Part shown: positions 1,696 through 32,343 of the stretch, piece by piece | Numbering within the stretch: position 1 is the stretch's first letter | Layout of the letters: each line of letters begins with the position of its first letter | Assembly: GCA_016704485.1 (NCBI GenBank) | Contig: JADJAA010000001.1 | Coordinates: 1,554,824 to 1,618,823 of the forward strand | Length of the DNA: 64,000 nt | Reading direction: 5' to 3' | From: Flavobacteriales bacterium | GTDB lineage: Bacteria > Bacteroidota > Bacteroidia > Flavobacteriales_F > PHOS-HE28 | Translations under genes and position numbers: made by a program | The notes under the pieces: model-generated | Databases searched by the model: none | Told to the model about the DNA's origin: nothing | Seen by the model: the letters and a program-made list of their open reading frames with translations, nothing else

Positions 1696-1819
1696 GTGGG
1701 CGGCTGCCGCGCGGATACCGGATCGCCACGCACAGTTGCCTGCCGAGCTGCTGTGACGCACATAAAAGAACTGGATCATCACTGCACCGCTACCTGCCTA
1801 ACTGCTGCGCCGCGAAGAA

Positions 1820-15719: not shown

Positions 15720-17534
15720 TTACAAGCCTTCGTAATAGCCCTTGATCTTTTGTGCCATCAGGTGTTTGCGTTCCTCCAAAAAGGTCTGGTAGCTTTTTAC
15801 ATCATAGTCGAAGATAGCTGTTGGGATGCAGTTCTCGCGCATGTTCTTGCGCAGGTCGGCCATGTTACGCAGACCACCGATGTCACCTTTGCCTTGCTCA
15901 AGCTTGTCCGCAACGGTCGTAAAGTATACCGCTGGCGTTTTGTCACCGATCTTGATGTTTCCGGGTTGGTCCATGTACACCAGATTGCTCACGCGATTGT
16001 ACAGACTGCGACCCAAGCCATTCTTCTTCAACAAGCTGCGGGGGAAGATGTGGTGTACATCTCCGCGTGTAAGCAACATGTCGTTCACGGTGAGGTGCCG
16101 ACTGAACAGACCATGGTCGTTCGCGTTGGCTTGGGCAGCTAGGAATACGCCGAAGAACGGACTGCTCATCACTGGGCTTTCCAAATGCCCTGGAAGTACA
16201 GAATTCCAGAACGCATCACTCAGGTCACCTGCTTCGATCTCGGCTAAGTAGTCGGAAGCATTGCGTTCGTTCAGCCGTTTGATGTCAAAGTCGAATTGGC
16301 TTTCGAAGCTGCCCGTTGCACGTTCGGTCAAGATGCTCATAACGTACCAACGGCGCACCAAGCTTTGTAATTCATTGCCTCGGTCCATTCCTTGACGACG
16401 CAAATGCAGGTACAAGAAATAGGCGAAGTTGATCGCGTTCTTACTGCGCATCAACTTGCTGCGCACGAAGCCTGCCGACCGAAGGATCAACGTGAAGAAC
16501 TTGAAGTCAGTCTCATTCATGAAGCGGGCCACACCAGCGTCCAACTGCTTGAAAGAATTTTCCATAATGGTCTCCTCGAACGTGCGGTTCACGAAATCGC
16601 GTCCACTAAGTAGGCTGACCAGGTCGCTCATTTTACCACGACCGAATTCCACACCGCTGGCAACACGCAACATATCCGTGTAGGCCGGGTCATAGAGATC
16701 TTCGGTTTCGCTGCGTAGCCACTTCATGTTCTTGAAGTGCTCCGTGGCTGCGAACTCGGGGTCGTTCTCCTTGATGTGCTCGTAGTACTGCGGCTCTTTG
16801 CTCAGGTGGCAGAAGTAATCGATGGCCTTGCGCAGAACCGGACCACCATGGTGCTCGTTGCTGGCGATCTTGCTCATGGCAAAGTCCGCTTGGCTCAATA
16901 CGACTCCTTTGCTGTTGATGCGGATGAAGATCTCCGTTACCGTCTCTATGTCCAGTTCGTGGTTCAGTTCGATCACGCCGATCTGCCGCTTGGCTAAATT
17001 GGCCAATTGCCCAAGGCTGCTCTCCACAAGCTCGGCATCTGCATCCGGGTTTGCTGCGGTGTATGCTTTGTTCAATTTGATCAAGCTGAAACCACTCCCA
17101 AAGAACACCGCGATATCCGGCAACCACGCCTTGTCCTTTTGGATGATGGGCGTTTGCACCTCGAACTTCTGGGTGATGGGATGGAACGCGATCTTGATCT
17201 TGATCCGCGCATAATCCTTGTCCACCACGTATTCATCCATTAAAGCAGCACGCAATGCTGTTATGCGTTGTTGCCCATCGATCAAGATCTTCTTGCCGCT
17301 GCCAATGCTGCCATCTTTCAAGCGCACATCCGGGTTCTTCCATGTAATAATGTAGCCCACTGGAAAACCTTGGTAGATGCTATCCATCAGATCGCGGACT
17401 TTGCTCTTATCCCAAACGAATGGGCGCTGGATCTCGGGTATCGCGATCTCTTTCTCTTTCACCCACGACAATAAACTTTCGATAAGCGGCTGTTGGATAC
17501 TGTATTTCTGTGTTTGCATGATCGTGTTGAACAA
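15720..17534 (-). CDS. GmrSD/BrxU-like type IV (modification-dependent) restriction endonuclease, DUF262 (ParB-like NTPase) + DUF1524 (HNH-like)
   Basis: 604 aa. The N-terminus IPEIQRPFVWDKSKVRDLMDSIYQGFPVGYII...IDGQQRITAL is the DUF262 DGQQR motif. The C-terminus ...GDVHHIFPRSLLKKNG is the DUF1524 His-Me finger. Confidence 0.75.
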   Translation of the reverse strand: MFNTIMQTQKYSIQQPLIESLLSWVKEKEIAIPEIQRPFVWDKSKVRDLMDSIYQGFPVGYIITWKNPDVRLKDGSIGSGKKILIDGQQRITALRAALMDEYVVDKDYARIKIKIAFHPITQKFEVQTPIIQKDKAWLPDIAVFFGSGFSLIKLNKAYTAANPDADAELVESSLGQLANLAKRQIGVIELNHELDIETVTEIFIRINSKGVVLSQADFAMSKIASNEHHGGPVLRKAIDYFCHLSKEPQYYEHIKENDPEFAATEHFKNMKWLRSETEDLYDPAYTDMLRVASGVEFGRGKMSDLVSLLSGRDFVNRTFEETIMENSFKQLDAGVARFMNETDFKFFTLILRSAGFVRSKLMRSKNAINFAYFLYLHLRRQGMDRGNELQSLVRRWYVMSILTERATGSFESQFDFDIKRLNERNASDYLAEIEAGDLSDAFWNSVLPGHLESPVMSSPFFGVFLAAQANANDHGLFSRHLTVNDMLLTRGDVHHIFPRSLLKKNGLGRSLYNRVSNLVYMDQPGNIKIGDKTPAVYFTTVADKLEQGKGDIGGLRNMADLRKNMRENCIPTAIFDYDVKSYQTFLEERKHLMAQKIKGYYEGL

Positions 17535-17620: not shown

Positions 17621-20600
17621 TCAAGCACTGCGCTCACCCGGCTGTGCGTTCCCTTGCACCCACTCCACTACCGAGATGATCTTATCCTGATCATTCTCAT
17701 TCGGGAATAGGCCGAAGATCCCTTCTTGGTGTAGGTCCGTGAACGTTGAACCCGGCTCTGCGAGCATGCGTTTGTCGATCACGCCGTTCACCGTGAGGTG
17801 CCGAATGATGGAATCGATGAAGTGGATCTGCGTAGCACTGAAGATGGAGCCGGACAAGAATTCGCCGAAGGCTGCTTTTGCTGCGCCTTCATCAAGGCCG
17901 ATGATGCTGCGAATGAAATAGCCTAGTGGCCGTTCCTCGCCAAGTTCCTTCATCAAAGCCTCCTTCGTGCCGCGTTCGTCTCCATCGAACAGGATGCGTT
18001 CCAGTTCCACTAGCTCAGCGGTCGTGATCGGCTCATTGGTGTATAGTTTGTGAATGGTAAGCTGGTGTTTGTGCGAGCGGATGAACTCCTCTACACGCAT
18101 CCGATAGCTACGCATGGTGTAGCTACCTGGCATGGAGATGATATCCTCACCCTCGCTCACCAACTCATCTCTCAGGTCCGAGTATACCACTTTGCGTTCC
18201 TCGCGCGGTATCAAGCGCACTAGATCGCGCAATTGTTTTCGTGTGAATTCCAAGGCTTCCAGACCGAACACAGCGGCTCGTTGTTGTTGATCATTTGCGA
18301 CATCAAGAACTGCTTTGATCGCTGGATACCGCTCCTGCACTACGGGAATGTTGGAGAGCCGGGCAAGCTGTGTGGCGGTTGAGGCCAACGTGCGGAACAG
18401 GCGATCTACTGACGGCGCCTCTTGGGCCACAGCAATTTCCAGATCGAGCATAAGTAGGTCAAATCGTTTGGCCAGCTCGTCCTTGTCCGGTAGTTCGATC
18501 AAGTGACCAACGGTCTCGAACAGATCACTGATCCCGCTTTTTGATAACGCATTCCATGCGGTACGTTCACGGTAGTGATCGAGCACACGTTGCGCAGGAC
18601 GAATGCGCACGGTGTGCCGCAATTCCCAAAGTGCCTGGACCCAACTATGCGCACTATTCAAAAGCTCAACGCGTAGTGCTTGATCTTTTGGTACCTGATG
18701 GGCTGGTTCACGCAGTTGTTCACTAAGTAGGATAGTTGCTTCAAAGATCCGTTGCGATAGGCTGGGGGAGCGCACAGGTTCAATGCCTTCCGGCCGCAGG
18801 TTGAAGAAGCTGTAGTTGCCACAGAGATCGAAGATCCTGAAGTTCTCCTTGTGCTGGCCGGGACCGAACAGATCCGGGCATAAGCGTGTGCCGCGGCCAA
18901 CCATTTGCCAGAACTTGGACTTGCTATAGACCGGTTTAAAGAACACCAAGTTCACGATCTCAGGAATATCAATACCCGTATCCAACATATCCACACTCAC
19001 GGCGATCTGTGGATACCGGTCCTTATCACTGAAATTATCTATGATGCTCTGGGAGTATTGCTCCTTACTGTGTACCACCGACATGAAATGCCCACCGTAC
19101 TGCGGGAACTGATCTTCAAAACGGTTCTGTATGGCCCGGGCATGGTCTATGTTCCTTGCAAAGACAACGGTCTTGCCCAGCTTCTCACCACCTTCCACTT
19201 TGATCCCGTTCTCCATCACATAGGCCAACACCTGATCGATGGTGTTCGAGTTGAAGAGCCAGTTATTGATCGCGGGCGCTCCGATCTCTTCGGGTATATT
19301 CCCTTGGTCGTCCCGGAAGGTCTCTTCGTAATGTGTCCTATCGCTCTCACTCAGGTCATCGTAGCGGATACCGCGTTGCAGAAAGCCGAAGTCCACTGCT
19401 TTGCCAATGGGCGGCACCAGAAAACGATCGGCTACGGCCTGCCCTAATTCATAGAACGATGTCGGGTTATGCTCTTCGCAATCGAACAAGGCATAGGTAT
19501 CCCGATCCCCTTGGTCGTGTGGTGTTGCAGTAAGGCCGACCAACAAGGAATCGAAATAGGTGAAAATAGCACCGTACCGATCGTACACTGAGCGATGCGC
19601 CTCATCCACAATGATCAGATCGAAGTGACCGACACCGAAGGTCTTCACATCATCACTCCGCACTTGGTCCACGCGGTTCATTACCGTGGGGTAGGTGCTG
19701 AAGACCACCCGTGCGCTTTCATCATAGCGCTGTTTGGTGAGATCCAATGTGGTAACATTCGGCAGGTTCTTCTCAAAGGCCCGTTTTGCCTGTGTGACCA
19801 AGGCATTGCGATCAGCGAGAAAGAGCACACGCTTCGCCCAATTCGCTTTCAGTAGAAGGTCCACTAACGCGGCAACGGTACGCGTCTTGCCAGCCCCAGT
19901 GGCCATTACGATCAATGCTTTTCGCTTAAGACCGCGCATGCCATCTTCATCCACCCAACTTTCTGCAACCCGCTTGATCGCTTGATGTTGGTAATAGCGT
20001 TCCACGATCTGCTCATCGATCGGCACATGCCGAATGTTCACACGACCGATACGCCGATCAACGACCCGTTGCAATTCGTCCCGCGTGTAAATGCCCTGTA
20101 CAGCGCGTGGACCATAAAAGGTGTCATCCCAGATCCACGTATCGAAACCGTTGCTATAGAATATCACCGGGCGCTGTCCGGTCATGCGTTCCAGGCAATC
20201 AGCGTAAAGGCTTGCTTGCACACGGCCTTGTTGGGCATCGTGGGTGGTGCGCTTGGCCTCTACTACGGCCAGCGGTTTACCATCTGCACCCCAGAGCACG
20301 TAATCTACCTTGCCGTTGCCGTTGGGATTGGTGCTCAATGGCATCCCTGTTACCGGGTATTCGATCACGTTGGATGCGGCAGGGTCCCAGCCTGCTTCGC
20401 GCAACAGTTCATCAATGAAGAGTAACCGTGTATCCGCCTCCGAATATTCAGAAGCAGGTATGGGTATGTTCTCATGGCGCTCCTTGCGCTCCTGGATCGC
20501 TGCCAGGCGTTCTGCCAATATCTGCTTTTCTCCTTCTAATTTCAACCGTTGCTCGCGCTCGGTCTCCATCGCTACACGTTGCGCTTCATAACGCTCCTGT

Positions 20601-21079
20601 AACTGTTGAAGCTCCGCGCTGTTCGGAACTTCCTTCACTTTCACTTGTACTATGAGTGCCTCCTCTTGGAATGTTCCTACCTCGATGTCGAATGCGCTGT
20701 ACGTACGACCCATCCATTTCAAGAACCGGAACAAGAGGCGCAATGAGGCTACGCTCTGGCTCTCCACCACCTTCTTATCATGCGCAGCGGCATTGCCGGT
20801 ACGCCGGATGTACTGCAGGTCGATGTAGATGGGTGGTGGTATCAGTACCCGGAAGGACCGTTCATCCATCAACGCGCTCAACTGGCTGTTGTAAGGGCGC
20901 TGTAGGTCACTGTCGTTATCATACAGCCAGTGCACGGTACGTTCCAACGCACGGCGGGCATACACGGCAGAGGCGATCGGTGCGGCCAAGGCATACCGCT
21001 CCGCGTCCATGGCCTCCTTCGCAATGGAGGGCCACTCTTCAACGAGGAAGCGGAAGTTGCTCGGGGTGCTCAACGACAT
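17621..21079 (-). CDS. hsdR: Type I restriction enzyme R subunit (EcoEI/COG4096-like, with EcoEI_R_C C-terminal domain)
   Basis: 1152 aa. The N-terminus is SNFRFLVEEWPSIAKEA. The PD-(D/E)XK nuclease motif is GKVDYVLWGADGKPLAVVEAKRT. The SF2 helicase motifs are VMATGAGKTRT and LIIVDEAHRS. A long C-terminal helical domain is present. Confidence 0.8.
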   Translation of the reverse strand: MSLSTPSNFRFLVEEWPSIAKEAMDAERYALAAPIASAVYARRALERTVHWLYDNDSDLQRPYNSQLSALMDERSFRVLIPPPIYIDLQYIRRTGNAAAHDKKVVESQSVASLRLLFRFLKWMGRTYSAFDIEVGTFQEEALIVQVKVKEVPNSAELQQLQERYEAQRVAMETEREQRLKLEGEKQILAERLAAIQERKERHENIPIPASEYSEADTRLLFIDELLREAGWDPAASNVIEYPVTGMPLSTNPNGNGKVDYVLWGADGKPLAVVEAKRTTHDAQQGRVQASLYADCLERMTGQRPVIFYSNGFDTWIWDDTFYGPRAVQGIYTRDELQRVVDRRIGRVNIRHVPIDEQIVERYYQHQAIKRVAESWVDEDGMRGLKRKALIVMATGAGKTRTVAALVDLLLKANWAKRVLFLADRNALVTQAKRAFEKNLPNVTTLDLTKQRYDESARVVFSTYPTVMNRVDQVRSDDVKTFGVGHFDLIIVDEAHRSVYDRYGAIFTYFDSLLVGLTATPHDQGDRDTYALFDCEEHNPTSFYELGQAVADRFLVPPIGKAVDFGFLQRGIRYDDLSESDRTHYEETFRDDQGNIPEEIGAPAINNWLFNSNTIDQVLAYVMENGIKVEGGEKLGKTVVFARNIDHARAIQNRFEDQFPQYGGHFMSVVHSKEQYSQSIIDNFSDKDRYPQIAVSVDMLDTGIDIPEIVNLVFFKPVYSKSKFWQMVGRGTRLCPDLFGPGQHKENFRIFDLCGNYSFFNLRPEGIEPVRSPSLSQRIFEATILLSEQLREPAHQVPKDQALRVELLNSAHSWVQALWELRHTVRIRPAQRVLDHYRERTAWNALSKSGISDLFETVGHLIELPDKDELAKRFDLLMLDLEIAVAQEAPSVDRLFRTLASTATQLARLSNIPVVQERYPAIKAVLDVANDQQQRAAVFGLEALEFTRKQLRDLVRLIPREERKVVYSDLRDELVSEGEDIISMPGSYTMRSYRMRVEEFIRSHKHQLTIHKLYTNEPITTAELVELERILFDGDERGTKEALMKELGEERPLGYFIRSIIGLDEGAAKAAFGEFLSGSIFSATQIHFIDSIIRHLTVNGVIDKRMLAEPGSTFTDLHQEGIFGLFPNENDQDKIISVVEWVQGNAQPGERSA

Positions 21080-21301
21080 GGAGGCGCAATTGACGATATT
21101 CTAAGCACTTGTACAATTACAAGATGCGAATAAGTCGAGCCTATGATGTGCGGCTTGTGATGGTAACTGCCGCGTGTGGCCCTTTACGGCTCTAAAATAC
21201 ATGTGGATACTTCAGAACCGGTCTTCTTGCTGCTAAGAGAATGCTAATTCCTCTGAAGCACTACATTGCGGACATGTGCACCCACACACGCCTGCTATTA
21301 G

Positions 21302-22063
21302 TTGCGATCGCCATTTTTGGTCGTAGGGCTATGCACGGCGCAACAAGATGGACCAACCGAGGAGGAGCAGCCAACAATTATCACGGCGGAACAACTGCAG
21401 GACTTTAATTCGGTAGTGCCCGGCATGGGTCGACAGATCCCGGGAATATACTTGTCCAACTACGGGCTTCTGTGTTACCACTTTGGGGATGATGGCACAT
21501 TCGCATCGCGCGACTTGAATGATTCCGGTTGGGTCGCAGCCGGTTCATGGTATGCGCCCATCACGTTGCCAAAGGAACAATTGGACACTGCGCAAGCCCT
21601 GTGGGTGCGGTACCATCTTCTCTGCGACAGTTCCCTGCGCGGTAGCCCATTGACACTAAGTTTGGGATCCATTGCCGGTATTGAGATCTTTTTGAACGGC
21701 CATCGGTTGGTGCACGTCCGGGAATTGCCGCCGGTTGTTCATGATCTTGATCAACCAATTTGGGACACGCTGCGGCGCTTTACCCTACCGATCACATTCG
21801 CGTGCCAAGGCGAACCAGAAGTGCTCGCTATTCGGATAGATCCGGCAAGGAATGGAATTCCCTACCCCACTTTGCACTATACGAACTTCGCCTACAACGT
21901 ACAGCTGTCCGCGATGCACTATGGTGTCTTCATCGGGGTCAACGCCATCATCTTTTGCTCGCCTTGGTCCTCTGGTCTTTGGACCGGAATGATAAGCAGT
22001 GGTGGCTACTGGCCCTGCTGGCCTTCGTTACAGGATCAGGGTATGCGCCAAGTTGACCAGTGA
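21302..22063 (+). CDS. 7TMR-DISM extracellular (DISMED2-like) sensor domain; probably the N-terminal part of a single frameshifted gene with 21999..23375
   Basis: 253-aa ORF ending in a first TM-like segment HYGVFIGVNAIIF. The downstream ORF, in another frame, supplies 6 further TM helices. That gives 7 in total, as in 7TMR-DISM receptors. Confidence 0.5.
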   Translation: MRSPFLVVGLCTAQQDGPTEEEQPTIITAEQLQDFNSVVPGMGRQIPGIYLSNYGLLCYHFGDDGTFASRDLNDSGWVAAGSWYAPITLPKEQLDTAQALWVRYHLLCDSSLRGSPLTLSLGSIAGIEIFLNGHRLVHVRELPPVVHDLDQPIWDTLRRFTLPITFACQGEPEVLAIRIDPARNGIPYPTLHYTNFAYNVQLSAMHYGVFIGVNAIIFCSPWSSGLWTGMISSGGYWPCWPSLQDQGMRQVDQ

Positions 22064-23375
22064 GATGGGCTTGTTGGGTTTGCCGTGGCCCACCATCCAG
22101 GTCATTGGCATTATTGACAAGATCCTCCTTCTATGGCCTATGTATGTGCTTATCATGGTCTTGTGGCGCATGCTAGGTGGGTTATCAAGTCGGCGCGCCT
22201 TTTGGCTCACCTTCGGTGTCTTGTTCGTTTCGGCAACCAGCGCTGGCCGCTTGTACTTTTTCGGGAAGATCTCCTGGTCATTTTCGGAGATCACGGGGGA
22301 ATACAGCATAGATGCAGGTTTGTCCGATGATCAGTGGCCACTTTTGGTCGCACTGGTGGTTGGTGCGGTACTGCGCTATTCCATAGCGCTCTGGTTCGCG
22401 ATCGAATTGATCCGACTTGGCATTCGCCTGGTGCGTAAGAAGGGTTTCGGACGTTGGATCGGGGCAGGGGCGCTTGTGTCCAGTCTGTTGAGTTTCCTCT
22501 TGACGTGCTTCGGCCTGGTCACTGAAATACCATCTACGACATGGCTCACACTTTCCGATTATCTCGCCTATGTTGCTGTGCCGGTTTCAGTCGTCATTTA
22601 TCTGGCCGTCACTGCCGCTCAAAACAACAAGCTGGTAGCGCGTCAACGGGATGATCTTGATCGCGAGGTGGACGACCGTACCGCCGAACTTGTAGCGGAG
22701 AAACAAGCGGTGTTGCGCGAGAAAGAACGCAGCGATGAACTACTCCTCAACATCCTGCCATCCGAAGTGGCGGAAGAACTAAAAGCCAACGGTTCGGCAA
22801 AGGCGCGGGACTTCGATCCCGCCACCATCCTGTTCACCGACTTCAAAGGCTTCACGGAGCTATCCGTGCAATTAAGTGCTCAGGATCTGGTGGCCGAGAT
22901 CAATACGTGTTTCGAGGCGTTCGATGGGATAATTTCCCGGTACGGTGTGGAGAAGATCAAGACCATTGGCGATGCTTACATGGCGGCAGGTGGCGTGCCT
23001 GATCCTCTGCGCGGATCACCGGCAGGTGTTGTAGAGGCCGCGTTGGAGATGCAGGAATTCATGGTCAGGTACAAAGCGCAACGAACAGCCTTGAACAAAC
23101 CGGCCTTCGAGATGCGTCTCGGTGTTCACACCGGCCCAGTGGTGGCGGGCATCGTGGGTGTGAAGAAGTTCCAGTACGATATCTGGGGCGACACCGTGAA
23201 CACGGCCAGCCGCATGGAGAGCAATAGCGAAGTGGGCCAAGTAAACATCTCGCAGAGCACCTATGAACTGGTGAAGAACGTGCCGGGACTTGCCTTCACA
23301 TCGCGAGGCAAAATACCAGTGAAAGGGAAAGGAGAGCTGGAAATGTACTTCGTAAAGAGAGGGCCGGTCGCATAG
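21999..23375 (+). CDS. 7TMR-DISM_7TM membrane domain + class III adenylate/guanylate cyclase catalytic domain
   Basis: There are six hydrophobic helices, followed by a coiled-coil and the cyclase core FTDFKGFTELS...KTIGDAYMAAGG...GVHTGPVVAGIVG...WGDTVNTASRMES. Confidence 0.75.
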   Translation: MVATGPAGLRYRIRVCAKLTSEMGLLGLPWPTIQVIGIIDKILLLWPMYVLIMVLWRMLGGLSSRRAFWLTFGVLFVSATSAGRLYFFGKISWSFSEITGEYSIDAGLSDDQWPLLVALVVGAVLRYSIALWFAIELIRLGIRLVRKKGFGRWIGAGALVSSLLSFLLTCFGLVTEIPSTTWLTLSDYLAYVAVPVSVVIYLAVTAAQNNKLVARQRDDLDREVDDRTAELVAEKQAVLREKERSDELLLNILPSEVAEELKANGSAKARDFDPATILFTDFKGFTELSVQLSAQDLVAEINTCFEAFDGIISRYGVEKIKTIGDAYMAAGGVPDPLRGSPAGVVEAALEMQEFMVRYKAQRTALNKPAFEMRLGVHTGPVVAGIVGVKKFQYDIWGDTVNTASRMESNSEVGQVNISQSTYELVKNVPGLAFTSRGKIPVKGKGELEMYFVKRGPVA

Positions 23376-23382
23376 CCATTTC

Positions 23383-23470
23383 CGATCCCTACTCCCCCCA
23401 AAACGCCCCCTGCAGCAAAAGCCCGAACAAGTCCTCGCTCCGGCGTAGGTTCGCAGTGGAACACCGGTAG
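23383..23470. repeat. Direct repeat copy 1 (~60-80 bp, ~80% identical to copy 2 at 24305..24395) flanking the 23477..24274 gene
   Basis: CCCCCCAAAACGCCCCCTGCAGCAAAAGCCCGAACAAGTCCTCGCTCCGGCGTAGG here versus CCCCCCGGAACGCCCCCTGCAACAAACTCCCGAACAAGCCCTCGCTCTGGTGTAAG at 24319. Confidence 0.6.
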
Positions 23471-23476
23471 TGCTGT

Positions 23477-24274
23477 CTATCCACTCCACTTCACGATATC
23501 CGCCACTACCGTCTTGTAGCTCAAGCCACGCAGCCGTTTCACCACCACGATGCGGGTATCTCCGTACTGCTCTGCGCGTTCGACCGACGAGTCAGTTGGT
23601 CTACTTTCCTTGATCCCCAGCCCCGTGCGAAAATGCGACCACCACGTATCGTTGGTGAGCACCACACAGAGTTTCGGCTGTAATTCCTCCAGTTCCATGC
23701 GCACCAGATCCACGCATTCGGGTCGTTGCAGGATGCGCTCGTCCACATCCGGATTGGCCACTTCGCCACGGTTCTGCGGTGCGATCTTGTAGAGGTTGGA
23801 CCATACCAGTTGACGGTTCCATTCCCACGCGTCCTCATTTGTGATGCCGTGCCGAACCTGCATCAGCTTGACCGTGGCCTGCCAGAAGAACGATGACCAA
23901 GCGCGGTAGTTCTTCTCCCGTTCGGTATACCAGGCTTGTTCTTCCGGGCTACACTTGTTCAAGGTAGTGTTCGTCCACAACACGTTCACCCAATCCAACG
24001 GGGAGTGGTCTTTGAAGGGTTCGTTGGAGTAGCGCTTGCTCTCTTCTATGCGGCCCCTCGGTACTGCCTTCGTGAAGTCCCACTCCGGGTGCCAACCACC
24101 CACGGCCTGGCCGTAGACCAGCACATCAACCGGTTCATTCGTTCGCGTACCGATGCTCGGATAGAAGTCTGTGAAGTGGGTGCGTTGCGGAAAGGTGCGC
24201 GCCAGTCGACGTTGAAAGGCTTCCAAGTGTTGCTGGTAGGCGGCGTTATAGGTTGGTGAGAGGGTGCGATACAT
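23477..24274 (-). CDS. Hypothetical protein (cassette-like gene flanked by direct repeats, between hsdS and the cyclase gene)
   Basis: ORF 23477..24451(-). The first 59 codons read through repeat copy 2 and look non-coding (Arg/Gly/Ser-rich). Probable start MYRTLSPTYNAAYQQHLEAF at 24274. No family recognised. Confidence 0.5.
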   Translation of the reverse strand: MYRTLSPTYNAAYQQHLEAFQRRLARTFPQRTHFTDFYPSIGTRTNEPVDVLVYGQAVGGWHPEWDFTKAVPRGRIEESKRYSNEPFKDHSPLDWVNVLWTNTTLNKCSPEEQAWYTEREKNYRAWSSFFWQATVKLMQVRHGITNEDAWEWNRQLVWSNLYKIAPQNRGEVANPDVDERILQRPECVDLVRMELEELQPKLCVVLTNDTWWSHFRTGLGIKESRPTDSSVERAEQYGDTRIVVVKRLRGLSYKTVVADIVKWSG

Positions 24275-24302
24275 TATGTCCGTGCTGCGTGATCCTCTTC
24301 CG

Positions 24303-25448
24303 TTAGTTCCCCAACTCCCCCCGGAACGCCCCCTGCAACAAACTCCCGAACAAGCCCTCGCTCTGGTGTAAGCTTGCTGCAATGCAGGTGCGCTGCTTTT
24401 GGATGTTATGGAGTAATGTTCCGAACCGTTCCTGCGCTTTGAGTGGAACAAGTGGAATACGCATTCTTCGGATCTCTTCTGTTGTGATATTCTTGAAGAT
24501 GGCTCCCACCGACTTATCGCTGACCCCTACGGCGAGCATATTCAGATAATGGTAAATGAACCTCAGGTCAAAGCCTTTGTCAAAGTCACGAAATCCTGCA
24601 AATCCATCGTGTATGCAACAGTCGACCATCAGGATCGCTGGCAGGCCTGGCTTCCCACTTACAGCCATCACCAAGTCACCACGTTTCATTGGACGACTGC
24701 GCTGTGAGCCTTCAATCGTGAGTGAATCGATCTGAGGTGTCACATACATCCCATCACGGGTCAAGTCTGCAACCATTAGGCGAGGCACGGGACCTCCAAA
24801 GTATCGCGCATCACCCTGTGGTCTTGGACTGCTCCCACGGACGACCTCACACAACGAACCCAAGTCTACAGTTTCCCACCCCCTCTCATTCCGCACCGGA
24901 TCCCCGAACAGCTCCAAGAACAGGCTCTTGGCAAGTTGGTCGTAAACCGCCAAGGTTCGCCGGTCGTTGGCCACCAGCGCCTGCGCCTTGTCCAAGATCG
25001 CCGCGATGCGACGCTGCGTGGGGAGGGCGGGCGGAGCAAAAGGTAAGCTGCGGATATCTTCTATCTTGAAGCCTTTCACCGTCGCTCCGTTTCCACGCGA
25101 AATGAAGTAATTCTCTTTCGCAAATAGAAAGTAATAGAGATAGGTCTGGTCAACCTTGCCATTTATAACAAGCGCCTTCAGATCCTGATTGAATGCCATC
25201 GGCACGTTCGTGATCGACATGCGCCCAAGAGCCATGCGTGTTGCAATCAATAACGTTCCGGCTGGAACTATCTGTGTCGCACAATTATCTACACCGCGTT
25301 CAGTGATCGACTCGTACGTCTCCGAAATATGCTTTGATGTAAGATCCTTCACCGTAGCCCATGGGACATCACCTTCCCAATAGCCCTCGATATCGCGATT
25401 AGGAGTACCACCACCAAGTATCTGGATATAATTGCCCAGCACGCTCAT
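24303..25448 (-). CDS. hsdS: Type I restriction-modification specificity subunit (two TRDs)
   Basis: 381 aa. Two target-recognition-domain halves are each followed by the conserved HsdS helix LPTQRRIAAILDKAQAL. Its start overlaps the hsdM stop by 4 nt (25445..25448). Confidence 0.8.
   Translation of the reverse strand: MSVLGNYIQILGGGTPNRDIEGYWEGDVPWATVKDLTSKHISETYESITERGVDNCATQIVPAGTLLIATRMALGRMSITNVPMAFNQDLKALVINGKVDQTYLYYFLFAKENYFISRGNGATVKGFKIEDIRSLPFAPPALPTQRRIAAILDKAQALVANDRRTLAVYDQLAKSLFLELFGDPVRNERGWETVDLGSLCEVVRGSSPRPQGDARYFGGPVPRLMVADLTRDGMYVTPQIDSLTIEGSQRSRPMKRGDLVMAVSGKPGLPAILMVDCCIHDGFAGFRDFDKGFDLRFIYHYLNMLAVGVSDKSVGAIFKNITTEEIRRMRIPLVPLKAQERFGTLLHNIQKQRTCIAASLHQSEGLFGSLLQGAFRGELGN
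24305..24395. repeat. Direct repeat copy 2 (partner of 23383..23470)
   Basis: See copy 1. It lies immediately downstream of the hsdS stop (24303) and upstream of the proposed start at 24274. Confidence 0.6.
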
Positions 25449-27004
25449 TTCAACAACGCCTCCAATTCGTCCAACAATTTCACACGGTCGGCGGCCAATT
25501 GGCGCAGGCCGGGTTCTCCCTTTTTGCCGTTGATCAGCTCGGCGGGCGTGGCATACTTCACTTGCTCGTACACCACCTCCTTGTAGCGGTTTATGCTGAG
25601 GTCCCAGTTGTTGGCCTTCAAGTCCGCAAAGGGCACCAGAAAGCTCTGGTCGGTTCGTGCACGTTTGCTTTCACCTTTCGCACCGAAGCGCGCTAGGATG
25701 TCGGCGATGTTGCTTTTCTCGTGCAGCGTTTTCGCTCCCTTGGTGGGCTCGGTGTATTGGAGTTCAAGCTGTTCTTCGGTGAGTTGCGGTGTGCGCTTAT
25801 CATCCAACGAGAAACCGTCGGCACGCATGTCGTAGAACCACACGTTGTCGGTACCGCCGCTATCGGTCTTGGTAAAGATCAGCACCGCGGTGCTCACCCC
25901 TGCATAGGGTTTGAATACGCCGCCGGGCATGCTGATCACCGCTTGCAATTGCTGGCGTTCGATCAGTTCCTGCCGCAGTTGCTTGTGCGCCTTGCTGCTG
26001 CCGAAGAGCACACCATCGGGCACGATCACAGCTGCGCGGCCACCTGTGCGGAGCATGCGCAGGATCAGACCTAGGAAGAGCAACTCGGTCTTCTTGCTGC
26101 TCACTGTGCGCAAGATCGCAGGGTCCACAGCGTCGTGGTCCAAGCTGCCTTTGAACGGCGGGTTCGCTAACACCAGCGAGAAGCGCTCACTGATGTGGCC
26201 TTGCTCTTTGCTAAGCGCATCCTGCCCGATCAGTTGCGGGTGCTCAATGCCGTGCAACATCATGTTCATGGCACCAATGCGCAACATGCTGGAGTCGAAC
26301 TCGACCCCGGTGAAGAGGTTGGTGTTGTAATGCTCGCGGAACTTCTTCTCGTGGAAGCTGTCCGGGTGCGTGCGCCGTATCTCTTCGCTTGCCGCCACCA
26401 AGAAACCGCACGTGCCGGCACTGGGATCGCAGATGGTATCGGTGGGTTGCGGAACCATCAGTTGCACCATCATGCGGATGATGTGGCGCGGTGTGCGGAA
26501 CTGGCCGTTGCGTCCTGCCGTAGCGATCTTGCCCAGCAGGTATTCATAGAGGTCGCCCTTGGTGTCGCGGTCGGCCATGTCCAGCGCGGCGATCATTTGC
26601 ACGGCGCGGTCCAGCAACCGCGCGGAGGGGATCATGAACGTAGCACCCTTCATGTGCTCACTGAACACGCTGCCCTCGCGCCCCATCTGCTTCATGAAAT
26701 CGAAGACCGTGAGGTTATCGTTCTTCGCATCAGGCCGCGTAAAGAGCGCGAACAATGTATCCGGGTCCTTGTCCTTGAAACTGCTCCACCGCAACGCCTT
26801 GTACTTGGGCGGGTAAATGGGATCCTTGATGGGCCCACCGAGCTTGGCGCTCTGCTTCTCTTTGGTGGTCTGGATCTCATCCATCCGGCGCAAAAAGAGC
26901 AAGTAGGTGATCTGTTCGATAACCGTGAGCGGATTGGCGATGCCGCCAGTCCAGAAGGCCTCCCAGAGGCGGTCGACGTCGGAGCGGAGTGTTCCGTTTA
27001 TCAT
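25445..27004 (-). CDS. hsdM: Type I restriction-modification N6-adenine DNA methyltransferase subunit
   Basis: 519 aa. It has the HsdM N-terminal domain, GQFRTPRHIIRMMVQL, motif I DPSAGTCGFL, motif IV LANPPFKG, and the C-terminus AAVIVPDGVLFGSS...AVISMPGGVF. Confidence 0.85.
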   Translation of the reverse strand: MINGTLRSDVDRLWEAFWTGGIANPLTVIEQITYLLFLRRMDEIQTTKEKQSAKLGGPIKDPIYPPKYKALRWSSFKDKDPDTLFALFTRPDAKNDNLTVFDFMKQMGREGSVFSEHMKGATFMIPSARLLDRAVQMIAALDMADRDTKGDLYEYLLGKIATAGRNGQFRTPRHIIRMMVQLMVPQPTDTICDPSAGTCGFLVAASEEIRRTHPDSFHEKKFREHYNTNLFTGVEFDSSMLRIGAMNMMLHGIEHPQLIGQDALSKEQGHISERFSLVLANPPFKGSLDHDAVDPAILRTVSSKKTELLFLGLILRMLRTGGRAAVIVPDGVLFGSSKAHKQLRQELIERQQLQAVISMPGGVFKPYAGVSTAVLIFTKTDSGGTDNVWFYDMRADGFSLDDKRTPQLTEEQLELQYTEPTKGAKTLHEKSNIADILARFGAKGESKRARTDQSFLVPFADLKANNWDLSINRYKEVVYEQVKYATPAELINGKKGEPGLRQLAADRVKLLDELEALLK

Positions 27005-27017
27005 GGGGTGAAGATGG

Positions 27018-28226
27018 TCAATGTTTGGTGATGGTGGTAAATTCCCATTTAGACTGTCCGTTCAGTTCGACTTGTTTGACTTGGCCGGAAACGAGGTCGC
27101 CATCCACAAGGCTGTGTAGTTTTATCAGATCCTTGTTGATGTAGGCATCGCCAGCATGGGCGTAGGTGTTATCGTTGCGTTTCTTGACCACGACGCGGCC
27201 CAGTTCTTTGGTATCACCGTCGAGTAGGGGAACTCCGTCGCTGCCTACCGCTTCCTCGTGTAGCCAGGTTCGGTTCGCCTTGGGGTCTGGATACTTTGCT
27301 GCGAACTTCTTGAACCAGACCAACACGTCCATGAGCTGGAACACGATGGTGCTCAAGAGGTAAGGCGTTACACCATGCTCGTGTAGTGCTTCGAGATTGT
27401 CCAAGCTGTAATTGGAATCCTCAGCGGTCTCGTCCGCATGCGAGCTTTCGCTGGTTACCCGCAGAATATTGTCCAGTGCATCGGCAACGATCCGGGGCAT
27501 CATCGGGCGGTCACACTTCAAGGCCACCGTGGCCGAAGAACGGCTCGGATAAAGCACGCGCTCGCCCCGCAGGAACAGTGCTGACAAGCGTTGGTTGACC
27601 CTCGGCTTTACAAGGACATCGGGTAGTAACCCGTGCCGATGCGCGGCATAGAAGAAGTGCTCCACTACCTGACGCAAAGGATTCATGAATAAGCGATCAC
27701 TACCGGACTTGTCCCCGCGATCCACAAAGCGCAATGCGTCCATGAACATAGGGTCGGCAACGGCATCCAAATAAGGAACTTGGAGCACTGCGAACACATC
27801 GGCATACCTATCACGAAGCGCTTGCTCGTTGCTTCGATCAACAAGGCTCTGTAGTTCCGCGTATAGGTCCTTCTCGTTCCCTTTCAAGTACCGCCGCTCA
27901 TCACGACGGTTCTTTGTTGCACCTTCGTCAAAGCCGGTATTGATCACATACGGAATATGAATGTTCGCTCCTTTCCATTGGTCCAGATCCCTGCGGGCTT
28001 CATGCAGGTGGTCGATGTCCTCGGTGGGTGAATGTTCATCCACCTGCCCTCTGGCATCGAGGATCAAGGCTTTGAAACGCTTTTCTCGGATCGGTTCCTT
28101 AGCCTCGGCCCAGGTCTTGAACCAAGTCACTTCGAAACCGTGCGCGACCGCCTTAGCAATTTGGGCTTTGGCGTATGCTTCATCGTCATCTACTAAGGCG
28201 ATCGGAACCAGGTCAAACAGTGTCAT
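27018..28226 (-). CDS. Response-regulator receiver (REC) domain protein with an uncharacterised ~280-aa C-terminal (effector?) domain
   Basis: ORF 27018..28289(-). Start at 28226 gives MTLFDLVPIALVDDDEAYAKAQIAKAVAHGFEVTWFKTWAEAKEPIREKRFKALILDARGQ, with an acidic pocket DDD and a phospho-acceptor-like D in ILDARG. The remainder has no recognisable family. Its start overlaps the stop of the upstream kinase gene by 14 nt. Confidence 0.65.
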   Translation of the reverse strand: MTLFDLVPIALVDDDEAYAKAQIAKAVAHGFEVTWFKTWAEAKEPIREKRFKALILDARGQVDEHSPTEDIDHLHEARRDLDQWKGANIHIPYVINTGFDEGATKNRRDERRYLKGNEKDLYAELQSLVDRSNEQALRDRYADVFAVLQVPYLDAVADPMFMDALRFVDRGDKSGSDRLFMNPLRQVVEHFFYAAHRHGLLPDVLVKPRVNQRLSALFLRGERVLYPSRSSATVALKCDRPMMPRIVADALDNILRVTSESSHADETAEDSNYSLDNLEALHEHGVTPYLLSTIVFQLMDVLVWFKKFAAKYPDPKANRTWLHEEAVGSDGVPLLDGDTKELGRVVVKKRNDNTYAHAGDAYINKDLIKLHSLVDGDLVSGQVKQVELNGQSKWEFTTITKH

Positions 28227-30909: not shown

Positions 30910-30971
30910 GCAACGGGGGTCAAAGTAAGCGGTGGAGGGTTATGGTGTAGATGTGTTTGCAGGTTATGATC

Positions 30972-32234
30972 TCAAGCGACTTTCTCCAGTCGGTTTGTCG
31001 GCAGAAGTTGGGCAGCCATACGATCCATGACCTCCCATTCCGGACGTGTGTACGAGTTGCTCTCCGTGACCACCGGGATCCTGAATTCGCCCATGGCATC
31101 CTCGCGCATAGCCCATTGATCCTTCTGGTCGTAGAGCTTTGTTCCGGGCAAAAGCATCAGCGGCCAAGCCTTAACGTCCCTGCAGCCTTTGGATAAGAGG
31201 TGGTCGATACTACGCTGGAAACTTTCCAAGGTCTGTCCGGGCAACCCGTAGATCAAACTCACTTCGAAAGGAATCTCGCGCTCCACAAGCTGTTCAATAG
31301 CAGCATCGACAAGATCCATCCGATTGGCGCGGTCAATTTTCTTGGACACTGCATGGTCCGTGGTCTGCAACCCGAACTCCAAGTGGAAGTTGGCTTGCGT
31401 ACAAAGGTCCAGGAATGCATTAACCTGTTGGCCTCGGATATTCTCAAAGCGCGATTGCAGGGTGAAGGTGGAGCGCGTACGGAGTTGAACGATCTCTTGC
31501 ATTATATCCAGGCACTCCTTCCCAGCGTTGAAGATGGGGTCGAGTATGTTCACGCGTTGCACACGATGTTCAGTGAGAAATGCTAACTCTTTAAAGACTT
31601 TATCCAGTGGGTGCTTATGCACGCGGTGAGTGGCGAGGTCGCGGTGTGCGCAAAATGAACACCGGTAGGGGCAGCCGCGTTTGGTCTCCAACCGTACCAT
31701 ACCGGCTCCCATTGGTACAGGCAATTCGCCAGTGAGATACGGTGAGGCCAGTTGTGTGAAGTCCACTGGTACGTTCACGAACACGGGTTCGTCGGCATCG
31801 AGATGGTCCGTCAATTCGGCAAAGGCTTGTTCGGCTTGTCCGGAGATGAAGACCTGGCAATCCGGATACCGACGCAGCAATTCTGCTCGGTTCCCGTAGG
31901 TGACTTGATACCCTCCGAGGACCACCTTGCCAAGGAACCCAAGACGACGAAGCAATGCGATGATGCCATTGGTGAGGTACTCGTTCCAGATGTAAGCCGA
32001 GAGCGCGATGGCGTTAAAGCGGCTCACATCAAGCGCCGCGAGTTGCACTTCGAATTGCTCGGGTGTGGCCGTGCCGCCGTGTTCGAGCATGTTGATCGAG
32101 AGGTGTTCCACGTGCATCTGTCCACGCAGCCGTTCATTACTCCGTTGGTGTGCCAAGAGAGATGCGATCGCCAAGGGCTTGGTGATCTCACCGTGCCGGA
32201 TCAGGTCGAAGGATATGATGAGCGTGTTCGTCAT
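30972..32234 (-). CDS. B12-binding domain radical SAM protein
   Basis: ORF 30972..32282(-). There is an N-terminal cobalamin-binding-like Rossmann region. The radical SAM cluster motif is RGCPYRCSFCAH (CxxxCxxC). It sits 62 bp upstream of the MTase-kinase gene, which is co-oriented. Confidence 0.75.
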   Translation of the reverse strand: MTNTLIISFDLIRHGEITKPLAIASLLAHQRSNERLRGQMHVEHLSINMLEHGGTATPEQFEVQLAALDVSRFNAIALSAYIWNEYLTNGIIALLRRLGFLGKVVLGGYQVTYGNRAELLRRYPDCQVFISGQAEQAFAELTDHLDADEPVFVNVPVDFTQLASPYLTGELPVPMGAGMVRLETKRGCPYRCSFCAHRDLATHRVHKHPLDKVFKELAFLTEHRVQRVNILDPIFNAGKECLDIMQEIVQLRTRSTFTLQSRFENIRGQQVNAFLDLCTQANFHLEFGLQTTDHAVSKKIDRANRMDLVDAAIEQLVEREIPFEVSLIYGLPGQTLESFQRSIDHLLSKGCRDVKAWPLMLLPGTKLYDQKDQWAMREDAMGEFRIPVVTESNSYTRPEWEVMDRMAAQLLPTNRLEKVA

Positions 32235-32343
32235 TGGTCCTCGCCACCAAGGGTCTATATGGTTGGATAATCGCTCAACCAACGAACTTCCCTATGGCAA
32301 CGGACCAAAAGTCCCGGTCACCTGTGCAGTCTATCTGCACAGT

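What the first reader, a model, noticed from the sequence alone, without database searches (positions are those of the whole stretch)
17621..27004. Type I RM locus split: hsdR separated from hsdM-hsdS by a 3.2-kb insertion carrying a cyclase gene and a repeat-flanked cassette
hsdM (25445..27004), hsdS (24303..25448) and hsdR (17621..21079) all lie on the minus strand. Between hsdS and hsdR sit a + strand 7TMR-DISM adenylate cyclase and a small minus-strand gene. Uncoupling R from M/S could alter restriction-alleviation behaviour. It also marks this spot as a hotspot for cargo insertion, as seen between hsd genes in other bacteria.
Basis: seen in the sequence. Interest (0 to 1): 0.5.

Follow-up and report, generated by a model that had tools for sequence, protein, structure and literature searches.

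The report
Type I restriction locus with cargo slot
A restriction-modification system in a wastewater Flavobacteriales genome holds two extra genes between its S and R subunit genes: a likely new DNA-glycosylase-type defence gene and a broken adenylate cyclase passenger. This layout is a known kind of arrangement, not a new one.

Summary
hsdM (25445-27004), hsdS (24303-25448) and hsdR (17621-21079) are intact minus-strand genes, and 3,223 nt separate hsdS from hsdR.

Comparative genomics supports a cargo slot:
- The family order is hsdM-hsdS-hsdR in 34 related loci.
- 15 loci are tight (<100 nt). 18 carry 1.1-9.4 kb of other genes there, including Mrr, Xre-RES pairs, a PLD-like nuclease and a TmtA-like helicase.
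- HsdM and HsdR co-diverge, so they are cognate.

The interval is composite, not one insertion:
2. The "flanking repeat" is a 27-codon relic of an older hsdS 3' end.
3. The convergent class III adenylate cyclase is lineage-specific. L141 has a PDC-M03 HipA-like pair there instead. Cyclase homologues sit in ordinary signalling neighbourhoods. In this window three frameshifts break the gene; they are the only indels in 33.6 kb.

No 7TMR-DISM Pfam model matched. Embedding of genes in Type I loci is already described, so interest is modest.

The parts
25445..27004 (-). hsdM, Type I methyltransferase subunit (519 aa)
   Evidence: Pfam HsdM_N plus N6_Mtase at 1.6e-57. PADLOC MTase_I PDLC03021 at 1.7e-168. 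81-83% identical to the HsdM encoded upstream of HsdR in L011 and L141.
24303..25448 (-). hsdS, specificity subunit with two target-recognition domains (381 aa); overlaps hsdM by 4 nt
   Evidence: Pfam Methylase_S, two stretches. PADLOC Specificity_I. Only the central and C-terminal conserved regions match relatives, as expected for variable TRDs.
23477..24274 (-). Gene X: 265-aa protein with a uracil-DNA-glycosylase-superfamily fold, 28 nt downstream of hsdS; candidate defence glycosylase
23383..23463 (-). Relic of an older hsdS 3' end: 27 codons, ...ANLRRSEDLFGLLLQGAFWGE followed by the relic's stop codon and two further codons; its stop is about 12 nt from the cyclase stop
   Evidence: Direct repeat D1 with the live hsdS 3' end, 68 nt at 82%. 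In-frame peptide match, E 1.3e-5. 80% nt identity to the L141 hsdS tail. Stop codons lie upstream of it in that frame.
21241..23375 (+). Class III adenylate cyclase gene with N-terminal signal/anchor, extracytoplasmic domain and 6-7 TM segments; convergent with hsdS-X; disrupted here by three frameshifts (extra base at 21318, missing bases at 21957 and 22035)
   Evidence: Guanylate_cyc at 1.6e-55 on the intact 711-aa allele. Indels found against 10 other assemblies. Hydropathy segments and the motifs FTDFKGF, KTIGDAYM and YDIWGDTVNTASR.
21080..21240 (.). 161-nt divergent intergenic region upstream of hsdR and the cyclase; must hold the hsdR promoter (inferred)
   Evidence: Gene layout. No sigma-70-type signal above chance on the hsdR strand and no TAnnTTTG motif. 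Not conserved with L141, where homology starts at 21062 inside hsdR.
17621..21079 (-). hsdR, restriction/translocase subunit (1152 aa), EcoAI/EcoEI-like
   Evidence: Pfam ResIII, Helicase_C, HSDR_N, EcoEI_R_C and DUF4145. PADLOC REase_I at 2.7e-160. NCBIfam restrict_EcoAI scores 242 bits, below its 550-bit cut-off. Full-length homologues lie downstream of hsdM-hsdS in more than 30 genomes.
15720..17519 (-). GmrSD-like Type IV restriction gene directly downstream of hsdR; its 5' end (17292-17520) is the recombination boundary in a strain variant that lacks the whole hsd block
   Evidence: GmrSD_N at 2.6e-31. PADLOC HEC-05. L146 homology starts at 17520, with 20 SNPs in 17292-17451.

Best explanation
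This is an intact-looking EcoAI/EcoEI-like Type I restriction-modification system inside a defence island of an activated-sludge Flavobacteriales bacterium. Its hsdS-hsdR junction is a cargo slot, as in many relatives.

Shown:
- hsdM, hsdS and hsdR are cognate. The ancestral family order is M-S-R on one strand.
- The slot is empty in about half of the related loci and filled with defence or toxin-antitoxin genes in the others.
- Here the slot holds three things of different age. (a) Gene X lies 28 nt after hsdS on the same strand, and a sister lineage has it in the same position. (b) A 27-codon dead hsdS 3' end lies between X and the cyclase. (c) A convergent membrane adenylate cyclase occupies the place where the sister lineage has a PDC-M03 (HipA-like) pair.

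Inferred:
- An earlier hsdS once ended next to the cyclase stop codon. Later an hsdS-X segment replaced most of that hsdS. One end recombined homologously; the other joined illegitimately just after X, leaving the old tail behind.
- X is co-transcribed with hsdMS.
- X acts as a DNA glycosylase on modified phage bases that escape Type I restriction. This would parallel Mrr in the same slot in Nocardia and Rhodococcus, GmrSD downstream here, and the UDG-fold defence enzymes Brig1 and Brig2.
- hsdR is transcribed from its own promoter in the 161-nt divergent region.
- The cyclase is a non-defence passenger, and it is decaying in this particular genome.
For: Gene identities.

Slot variability: the HsdR scan found 46 loci. 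Of 34 loci with both S and R, 15 have gaps under 100 nt and 18 have gaps of at least 1 kb. Cargo includes Mrr, Xre-RES x2, a PLD-like protein and a TmtA-like helicase.

Sister locus L141 is syntenic: WYL, rSAM, MTase, hsdM (83%), hsdS, X (71%), then PDC-M03A/B on the opposite strand, then hsdR (73%).

Relic hsdS tail.

Gene X:
- Fold.
- Sequence bridge to Pfam UDG in 19 of 57 distant relatives.
- Contexts: between hsdS and hsdR of a second Type I family (L054; L063 with KwaB), after an EcoR124-type hsdR (L067), next to WYL plus Wadjet, and WYL-WCX neighbours in 8 of 24 loci.

Cyclase as passenger:
- Homologues at 44-49% identity (the three examined) sit in signalling and T9SS neighbourhoods.
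- Opposite orientation, whereas 96.7% of embedded genes are co-oriented (bioRxiv 10.1101/2024.01.29.577857).
- It holds the three frameshifts that are the only indels in 33.6 kb.

Strain variant L146 lacks the whole block.
Against: - No activity was measured for the R-M system or for X.
- X itself does not reach any Pfam UDG threshold. Its motif 1 (GQAVGGW) lacks the acidic or Asn catalytic residue of UDG families 1-4. An Arg replaces the motif-2 His (read from alignment A1). Glycosylase chemistry is therefore not assured.
- One X homologue (Niabella) sits among housekeeping genes.
- No 'empty' hsdS-X-hsdR or hsdS-hsdR state was found in the same species, so the direction of events (insertion versus replacement) is inferred.
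- No promoter could be identified upstream of hsdR.
- The three cyclase indels all lie in short homopolymers and could still be local assembly errors.
Confidence: 0.8

Rival explanations
1. The cyclase is a working component of the defence locus. It would be a membrane sensor that makes a cyclic nucleotide to trigger or regulate defence, in a Pycsar-like or cAMP-controlled manner.
For: - It lies inside a defence system.
- Weak PADLOC PycC similarity (3e-15, 54 bits) over the catalytic domain.
- Faint S_4TM similarity in the TM region (E 0.002-0.007).
Against: - No cNMP-binding effector gene is adjacent.
- The generic Guanylate_cyc match is far stronger, at 188 bits.
- The adenine-specifying Lys and Asp are present in KTIGD and YDIWG (judged against class III cyclase knowledge).
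- Full-length homologues live in ordinary signalling neighbourhoods.
- Opposite orientation.
- The sister lineage has PDC-M03 in that position instead.
- It is frameshifted here while every neighbouring gene is intact.
Confidence: 0.05
2. Gene X is an ordinary base-excision-repair or other non-defence enzyme that merely hitch-hikes next to hsdS.
For: - The UDG superfamily is mainly a repair family.
- The Niabella homologue lies near dnaG and an adenine glycosylase gene.
- PADLOC has no model that matches it.
Against: - It recurs beside three different HsdR families and next to Kiwa, Wadjet, WYL-WCX regulators, AAA_15/DUF4276 and GIY-YIG genes.
- hsdS-X adjacency is conserved in L141 at 71% identity.
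- The family is patchy and limited to Bacteroidota at close range, unlike a core repair gene.
Confidence: 0.2
3. The three cyclase frameshifts are assembly or polishing artefacts, and the gene is intact in the real genome.
For: - All three indels are one-base changes in short homopolymers (T5/T4, T4/T5, G3/G4).
- All 10 other assemblies of the same population carry the intact gene.
- A sibling long-read MAG (L003) shows many such errors.
Against: In 33.6 kb compared with short-read assemblies, this window has no other indel, only 12-14 substitutions. If three random errors were spread uniformly, the chance that all fall in one 2.1-kb gene is about 3e-4.
Confidence: 0.35
4. hsdR is not the partner of the neighbouring hsdM/S. 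The two are parts of different systems brought together by chance.
For: They are separated by 3.2 kb and by a convergent gene.
Against: - HsdM homologues (49-83% identity) lie upstream of HsdR homologues on the same strand in most of the loci recovered with HsdR.
- The identities of the two proteins rise and fall together.
- No second hsdM/S or hsdR is in the window. The only other N6_Mtase is a different MTase-GHKL fusion.
Confidence: 0.03

Closest known systems
Type I R-M loci with embedded defence genes: EcoprrI/PrrC, V. cholerae VPI-2 T1RM/TgvAB, C. jejuni rlo genes, and the 'guilt-by-embedding' set of Payne et al.
   Same: - Extra genes sit between hsd genes of an otherwise complete Type I system.
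- The cargo in relatives is mostly defence or TA genes (Mrr, RES-Xre, Kiwa, PDC-M03).
- X is co-oriented and sits immediately after hsdS.
- A modified-DNA-directed function alongside Type I restriction would parallel TgvAB and BrxU (PMC11411939; PMC3874165; bioRxiv 10.1101/2024.01.29.577857).
   Different: - One cargo gene is a convergently oriented membrane adenylate cyclase with no defence signature. Payne et al. report that only 3.3% of embedded genes are in the opposite orientation.
- X belongs to none of the described embedded families.
- A dead hsdS tail records an hsdS replacement.
Brig1 and Brig2, UDG-superfamily antiviral DNA glycosylases
   Same: - It is located in defence islands, sometimes near Wadjet or R-M genes.
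   Different: - No sequence comparison with Brig1 or Brig2 could be made here.
- Brig1 homologues were reported from Actinobacteria, Firmicutes, Proteobacteria, Cyanobacteria and Planctomycetota. X's close family is found only in Bacteroidota.
- The substrate and activity of X are unknown.
EcoAI/EcoEI (Type IB) restriction enzymes
   Same: HsdR carries the EcoEI_R_C C-terminal domain. Its best NCBIfam similarities are PRK11448 and restrict_EcoAI. HsdM and HsdS have the usual domain make-up.
   Different: Scores are far below the NCBIfam equivalog cut-offs (242 versus 550 bits; 287 versus 729). HsdR has an extra N-terminal DUF4145 domain. The gene order is M-S-(cargo)-R.
7TMR-DISM receptors and class III adenylate cyclases
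   Same: The architecture is signal/anchor, extracytoplasmic domain, 6-7 TM segments, coiled coil and cyclase. The catalytic domain is PF00211 with the six canonical residues.
   Different: No match to the 7TMR-DISM Pfam models. The gene is frameshifted in this window.

Membership tests
Type I restriction-modification system | HsdM with an N6-adenine methyltransferase domain and the HsdM N-terminal domain | tested here: met
   Pfam N6_Mtase at 1.6e-57 and HsdM_N at 3.8e-12. PADLOC MTase_I at 1.7e-168.
Type I restriction-modification system | HsdS with two target-recognition domains | tested here: met
   Methylase_S with two stretches. Full-length Specificity_I matches.
Type I restriction-modification system | HsdR with a nuclease N-terminal region, an SF2 motor and a C-terminal assembly domain | tested here: met
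   HSDR_N, ResIII, Helicase_C and EcoEI_R_C. REase_I model covered 8-1100 of 1107.
Type I restriction-modification system | The R, M and S genes are cognate (same family, inherited together) | tested here: met
   The M-S-R order is seen in 34 loci, and identities co-vary.
Type I restriction-modification system | Sequence-specific methylation and ATP-dependent restriction | not testable with these tools
   Needs a methylome and restriction assays.
Type IB (EcoAI/EcoEI) subfamily | Equivalog-level similarity of HsdR to EcoAI | tested here: not met
   NF046051 scores 242 bits against a 550-bit cut-off. PRK11448 scores 287 against 729. Only the EcoEI_R_C domain is shared.
Defence genes embedded in Type I loci | Located between hsd genes in the same orientation | tested here: met
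   Met for X. Not met for the cyclase, which is on the opposite strand.
Defence genes embedded in Type I loci | Recurrent embedding or defence-island association in unrelated loci | tested here: met
   For X: L008, L054, L061-L064, L067, L074, L141, and WYL/Wadjet/Kiwa neighbours. For the cyclase: not met. The three homologue contexts examined were all non-defence.
Defence genes embedded in Type I loci | Protection against phage | not testable with these tools
   Requires experiments.
Uracil-DNA glycosylase superfamily (gene X) | The alpha/beta UDG fold | tested here: met
   [not shown]
Uracil-DNA glycosylase superfamily (gene X) | Sequence match to Pfam UDG (PF03167) | tested here: inconclusive
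   X itself has no hit, and the profile has no PDB sequence hit. But 19 of 57 distant relatives found with the X profile do hit PF03167, best 3e-5.
Uracil-DNA glycosylase superfamily (gene X) | Catalytic motif 1 (G-x-D/E/N-P-G/Y) and motif 2 (H-P-S) | tested here: inconclusive
   Invariant G55-Q56-A57..G60-W61, WSNLYKIAP..NP and R247. These resemble family-4/5 spacing, as I recall those motifs. The acidic/Asn residue and the His are absent.
Brig1 family | PSI-BLAST-level homology to Brig1 (GenBank OR880862) | not tested
The taxonomic ranges do not overlap (PMC11078745).
7TMR-DISM receptors | Match to the 7TMR-DISM Pfam models (as I recall, 7TMR-DISM_7TM and 7TMR-DISMED2) | tested here: not met
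   No hit at E<=0.001 on the full protein or at E<=10 on residues 1-491.
Class III adenylate cyclase | PF00211 domain with two metal Asp, adenine-specifying Lys and Asp, and transition-state Asn and Arg | tested here: met
   Guanylate_cyc at 1.6e-55. Motifs FTDFKGF, KTIGDAYM and YDIWGDTVNTASR at residues 532, 574 and 646. Residue roles come from my knowledge of class III cyclases.
Pycsar | PycC cyclase plus an adjacent cNMP-binding effector (PycTM or PycTIR) | tested here: not met
   Only a weak PycC similarity at 3e-15. The neighbours are X and hsdR, and no cNMP-binding domain is present.

The most novel reading that the evidence does not exclude
Gene X founds a Bacteroidota family of UDG-fold antiviral glycosylases. 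The family is distinct from Brig1 and Brig2 and is habitually wired into Type I R-M operons directly behind hsdS. Elsewhere it is paired with WYL-WCX regulators. It would excise a modified phage base that makes DNA immune to Type I restriction, so the locus would be a two-layer system against unmodified and modified DNA.
Probability: 0.4. Interest if true: 0.55.

Novelty: new member of a known kind. Interest (0 to 1): 0.35.

Why it matters
The locus is a clean natural example of a Type I R-M operon used as a docking site for other genes. Three time layers are visible: a conserved hsdS-linked accessory gene, a relic of an hsdS swap, and a recent non-defence passenger that is decaying.

Its practical value lies in gene X. 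It is an unannotated protein with a confidently modelled UDG fold. Its profile family has about 1,400 clusters at 50% identity, and it recurs inside Type I loci and next to WYL regulators. That makes X a concrete, testable candidate for a new antiviral DNA glycosylase.

The split R-M arrangement itself is already well described and would not surprise a specialist.

Tried and rejected
- Sigma-70 promoter and terminator scan of 20900-27300: counts were not above shuffles.
- Search for the Bacteroidetes -7 motif TAnnTTTG in all intergenic spacers: none found, and only 6 occur in the whole window, so the test is uninformative.
- RNA fold of the X-cyclase spacer for a bidirectional terminator: z = 0.53, nothing.
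- The palindrome CTTGTA-caat-TACAAG at 21108-21123 upstream of hsdR is too short to exceed chance, so I dropped it.
- Reading the 68-nt repeat as terminal repeats or a target duplication of a mobile cassette: rejected. The copies are only 82% identical, both are in-frame hsdS C-termini, no recombinase is present, and L008, L054 and L141 have X without such a repeat.
- Searching for relic hsdS tails after X in other loci: none.
- Sequence search of the X profile against PDB: no hit.
- The afdb50 fold library was unavailable.
- A look-up of the 38824-40638 protein, meant to extend the indel calibration, failed.
- Phase variation of the cyclase by homopolymer slippage: rejected. The tracts are only 3-5 nt, and three changes would be needed at once.


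Full report
**Observation**

- 17621-21079(-) encodes a 1152-aa protein with DUF4145, HSDR_N, ResIII, Helicase_C and EcoEI_R_C. It matches the PADLOC REase_I model end to end at 2.7e-160.
- 24303-25448(-) is a two-TRD HsdS.
- 25445-27004(-) is an HsdM (MTase_I, 1.7e-168). It overlaps hsdS by 4 nt.
- The gap between the hsdS stop and the hsdR start is 3,223 nt.

The gap contains four features:
- A minus-strand 265-aa gene, here called X (23477-24274).
- A 68-nt direct repeat, 23387-23454 versus 24310-24377, at 82% identity.
- A + strand cyclase gene (Guanylate_cyc, 7e-56).
- A 161-nt divergent spacer in front of hsdR.

**Source and neighbourhood**

The same 20-25 kb is present at 99.9% identity or more in many activated-sludge and wastewater assemblies and in MAGs named 'Flavobacteriales bacterium'.

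The region is a defence island. On the minus strand the gene order is:
- a WYL regulator
- a radical-SAM protein (PADLOC PDC-M51A)
- an N6_Mtase/TRD/GHKL-ATPase fusion
- a 402-aa unknown
- hsdM, hsdS, X, then the cyclase on the opposite strand, then hsdR
- GmrSD (HEC-05-like)
- a 1610-aa DpdF/UvrD-like helicase

**Are R and M/S partners, and is the interval an insertion site?**

A scan of one genome per species with HsdR returned 46 loci. I mapped HsdM, HsdS and HsdR on them by tblastn.
- The order hsdM-hsdS-hsdR on one strand appears in 34 loci.
- 15 loci have fewer than 100 nt between S and R (Paenibacillus, Cohnella, Sphingomonadales, Anaerolineales).
- One locus has 674 nt.
- 18 loci have 1.1-9.4 kb.
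- HsdM and HsdR identities to the window move together: 81/70% in L011, 56/49% in L009, about 50/41% elsewhere, and 83/73% in L141.

The genes are therefore cognate, and the S-R junction is a variable slot.

Cargo identified by Pfam and PADLOC:
- Mrr directly after hsdS in the Nocardia locus scanned (L025). Five further Nocardia/Rhodococcus loci have a same-sized 308-aa ORF in that position.
- Two tandem Xre-RES pairs in front of hsdR in L008. L011 has two RES-domain ORFs in the same place. These are the two nearest representative genomes.
- A PLD-like 892-aa protein plus two unknowns in Rhodocytophaga.
- In L008, an unknown 294-aa ORF, an X homologue (59% identity) and an 1827-aa TmtA-like helicase.

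**The sister locus**

The closest X homologue (P0002, 71% identity) lies on a wastewater contig, L141, that is syntenic with the window. Its order is WYL, DUF2130, rSAM (72%), MTase, a 302-aa gene, hsdM (83%), hsdS (35%, with only the conserved regions alike), and X 21 nt after hsdS. Next come two opposite-strand genes, and then hsdR (73%).

The two opposite-strand genes are PADLOC candidate PDC-M03A/B (1.9e-98 and 6.8e-76; HipA_C kinase plus partner). So hsdS-X is an older unit, and the space between X and hsdR is where content differs: a cyclase here, PDC-M03 there. DNA homology with L141 resumes only at 21062, inside hsdR. Each lineage therefore has its own hsdR upstream region.

**The repeat**

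The downstream copy translates in frame to ...ANLRRSEDLFGLLLQGAFWGE-stop. The live HsdS C-terminus reads ...ASLHQSEGLFGSLLQGAFRGELGN-stop (E 1.3e-5). The relic is also 80% identical to the real hsdS tail of L141. Stop codons lie just upstream of it in that frame, so about 27 codons survive. Its stop is about 12 nt from the cyclase stop codon.

It is therefore the stump of an earlier hsdS that ended back to back with the cyclase.

The simplest history is inferred:
- An hsdS-X segment replaced the resident hsdS.
- One crossover was homologous, upstream.
- The other was an illegitimate join just after X.

No such stump follows X in L008, L054 or L141. This argues against a cassette with its own terminal repeats.

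**Gene X**

- No Pfam, NCBIfam or PADLOC model matches it.
- Word-indexed search finds 78 clusters, all Bacteroidota where named.
- An AlphaFold2 model built from 45 sequences has pLDDT 94.3 and pTM 0.92.
- Foldseek against PDB puts family-4 UDG (4zby), SMUG1 and TDG on top.
- A profile search of 1.8 billion representatives finds 1,393 clusters. Of 57 of the more distant members tested, 19 match Pfam UDG PF03167. This gives a sequence bridge to the superfamily.
- Invariant residues form G55-Q56-A..G60-W61 after the first strand, W-S-N160-L-Y-K163-I-A-P...N174-P175 on the second strand, and R247 near the C-terminus. As I recall the family-4/5 UDG motifs, the spacing is similar. The usual acidic/Asn residue of motif 1 and the His of motif 2 are missing, so catalysis is plausible but not assured.

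Contexts of X homologues:
- L054: between hsdS and hsdR of a different Type I family (T1RH-like_C HsdR), together with AAA_15/DUF4276.
- L063: hsdM, hsdS, a 194-aa ORF (possible KwaA), KwaB, a 439-aa gene, X, a HipA_2-like gene, a 289-aa gene, hsdR.
- L067: directly after an EcoR124-type hsdR.
- L061, L064, L074: upstream of an hsdR.
- Next to WYL plus Wadjet and next to WYL plus AAA genes.
- One housekeeping context in Niabella.
- Among 150 neighbours of 24 more distant homologues, WYL and WCX are the commonest domains (8 each). Type I, KwaB, GIY-YIG, KAP NTPase and integrase domains also occur.

Published UDG-fold defence enzymes behave alike:
- Brig2 targets modified thymidines (bioRxiv 10.1101/2025.10.29.685425).

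I therefore rate X as a probable modified-base glycosylase that complements Type I restriction, with probability about 0.4-0.5. Mrr in the same slot in actinobacteria and GmrSD downstream here would play the same complementary role. TgvAB in V. cholerae is the experimental precedent for such pairing (PMC11411939).

**The cyclase**

In the other assemblies the gene encodes 711 aa (or 700 aa with a later start).
- The domain is Guanylate_cyc at 1.6e-55.
- Hydropathy shows an N-terminal signal/anchor and 6-7 hydrophobic segments between residues 229 and 460.
- The motifs FTDFKGF, KTIGDAYM and YDIWGDTVNTASR carry the two metal Asp, the adenine-specifying Lys and Asp, and the Asn and Arg of class III adenylate cyclases (residue roles from my own knowledge).
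- No 7TMR-DISM model matches, even at E<=10.
- Full-length homologues stop at 51% identity. They are common in Flavobacteriales MAGs.
- The three contexts I examined are signalling, T9SS and housekeeping neighbourhoods, not R-M loci.
- PADLOC gives only a weak PycC similarity (3e-15), and no cNMP-binding effector is nearby.
- The gene is on the opposite strand, which Payne et al. report for only 3.3% of embedded genes.

I read it as a non-defence passenger.

In this window the gene is broken. Relative to 10 other assemblies there is one extra base at 21318 and single missing bases at 21957 and 22035. Across 33.6 kb compared (664-34275), these are the window's only indels; the other differences are 12-14 substitutions. 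Under a uniform model, the chance that all three fall in this gene is about 3e-4. All three are homopolymer changes, so I leave about 0.35 on local assembly error.

**Strain-level variation**

One contig, L146 (plus one similar contig), carries the identical helicase and GmrSD. Everything upstream of the GmrSD start is different there: a Type IIG-like MTase, DarT, Macro, DUF3644, PDDEXK_5 and DUF1643. Homology to the window begins at 17520. The first 230 nt hold 20 substitutions, and then identity is perfect. That pattern is the signature of a recombination tract. The whole hsd block with its cargo is thus itself exchangeable within the population.

**Expression**

- Because the cyclase is convergent with hsdS-X, hsdR cannot be read through from hsdMS. 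It must use a promoter in 21080-21240. This is inferred.
- Neither a sigma-70 scan nor a search for the Bacteroidetes -7 motif identified one.
- No terminator-like fold separates X from the cyclase.
- The effect on restriction alleviation cannot be judged from sequence.
- From my own knowledge, separate hsdR and hsdMS promoters are normal in EcoKI.

**Verdict**

The core interpretation, a Type I locus whose S-R junction is a cargo slot, is supported. Details need correcting: the interval is composite rather than a single insertion, the repeat is an hsdS relic, the cyclase is frameshifted, and the 7TMR-DISM label is unsupported.

The arrangement belongs to a known kind, defence and other genes embedded in Type I loci (PMC3874165, PMC11411939, bioRxiv 10.1101/2024.01.29.577857). 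The most useful new lead is gene X, a UDG-fold family not covered by Pfam or PADLOC.

Noticed in passing
window 33501-33894 and 34292-34746: Two long tandem arrays: 22 nt x 17.9 copies (consensus GTGGTACCCTGCACCAAGCTTA) starting about 150 nt upstream of the WYL regulator gene, and 21 nt x 21.7 copies. They might be operator or iteron-like arrays or repeat-protein coding sequence.
   Followed up: no
window 1395-1778 (-): A 127-aa ORF that holds only the C-terminal half of a cyclase domain. Window 1486-1725 is 71% identical at protein level to residues 626-705 of the embedded cyclase, closer than any full-length homologue found. It may be the remnant of a paralogous cyclase at the far edge of the island.
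   Followed up: partly
L146 (ERZ27275104 k141_48159) versus window 17292-17520: A strain variant with identical helicase and GmrSD. The whole hsd block is replaced by a Type IIG-like MTase, DarT-Macro (DarTG), DUF3644/EC042_2821, PDDEXK_5 and DUF1643. There are 20 SNPs in the first 230 nt of GmrSD and then perfect identity, which indicates a recombination tract.
   Followed up: partly
window 27018-33354 (-): A conserved module upstream of hsdM: WYL-WCX regulator, radical-SAM protein (PADLOC PDC-M51A, 6.6e-117), an 898-aa N6_Mtase/TRD/HATPase_c fusion and a 402-aa unknown. L141 has a similar order, with WYL and rSAM clearly homologous. A weak MTase-GHKL-like match (26% identity) also lies upstream of hsdM in Rhodocytophaga L009. 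It may be one larger multi-gene system together with hsdMSR.
   Followed up: partly
L073, L082, L084-L086, L090, L094, L099, L100: The more distant X-like proteins (33-39% identity) are followed by a gene of about 305 aa. Across 24 loci, WYL and WCX are the commonest neighbouring domains (8 each). This suggests a WYL-regulated UDG-like two-gene module.
   Followed up: partly
window 4460-4515: A cluster of 7 substitutions within 56 nt, relative to all other assemblies, in a PKD/T9SS-tail protein gene. The flanks are otherwise almost identical. This could be local recombination or diversifying change.
   Followed up: no
window 10664-15496 (-) and 6850-10223 (+): A 1610-aa fusion of a DpdF-like SF2 helicase and a UvrD/GajB-like helicase (PADLOC DpdF at 5e-98). 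It sits next to a ResIII helicase and a DprA-like/LDcluster4 gene. These are further uncharacterised defence-like genes in the island.
   Followed up: no
L025, L023, L038, L043, L045, L050 (Nocardia/Rhodococcus): A 308-aa ORF sits immediately after hsdS in the same S-R slot in six loci. The one scanned (L025) is an Mrr (Mrr_N plus Mrr_cat). A conserved Type I plus Type IV pairing in actinobacteria is therefore likely.
   Followed up: partly
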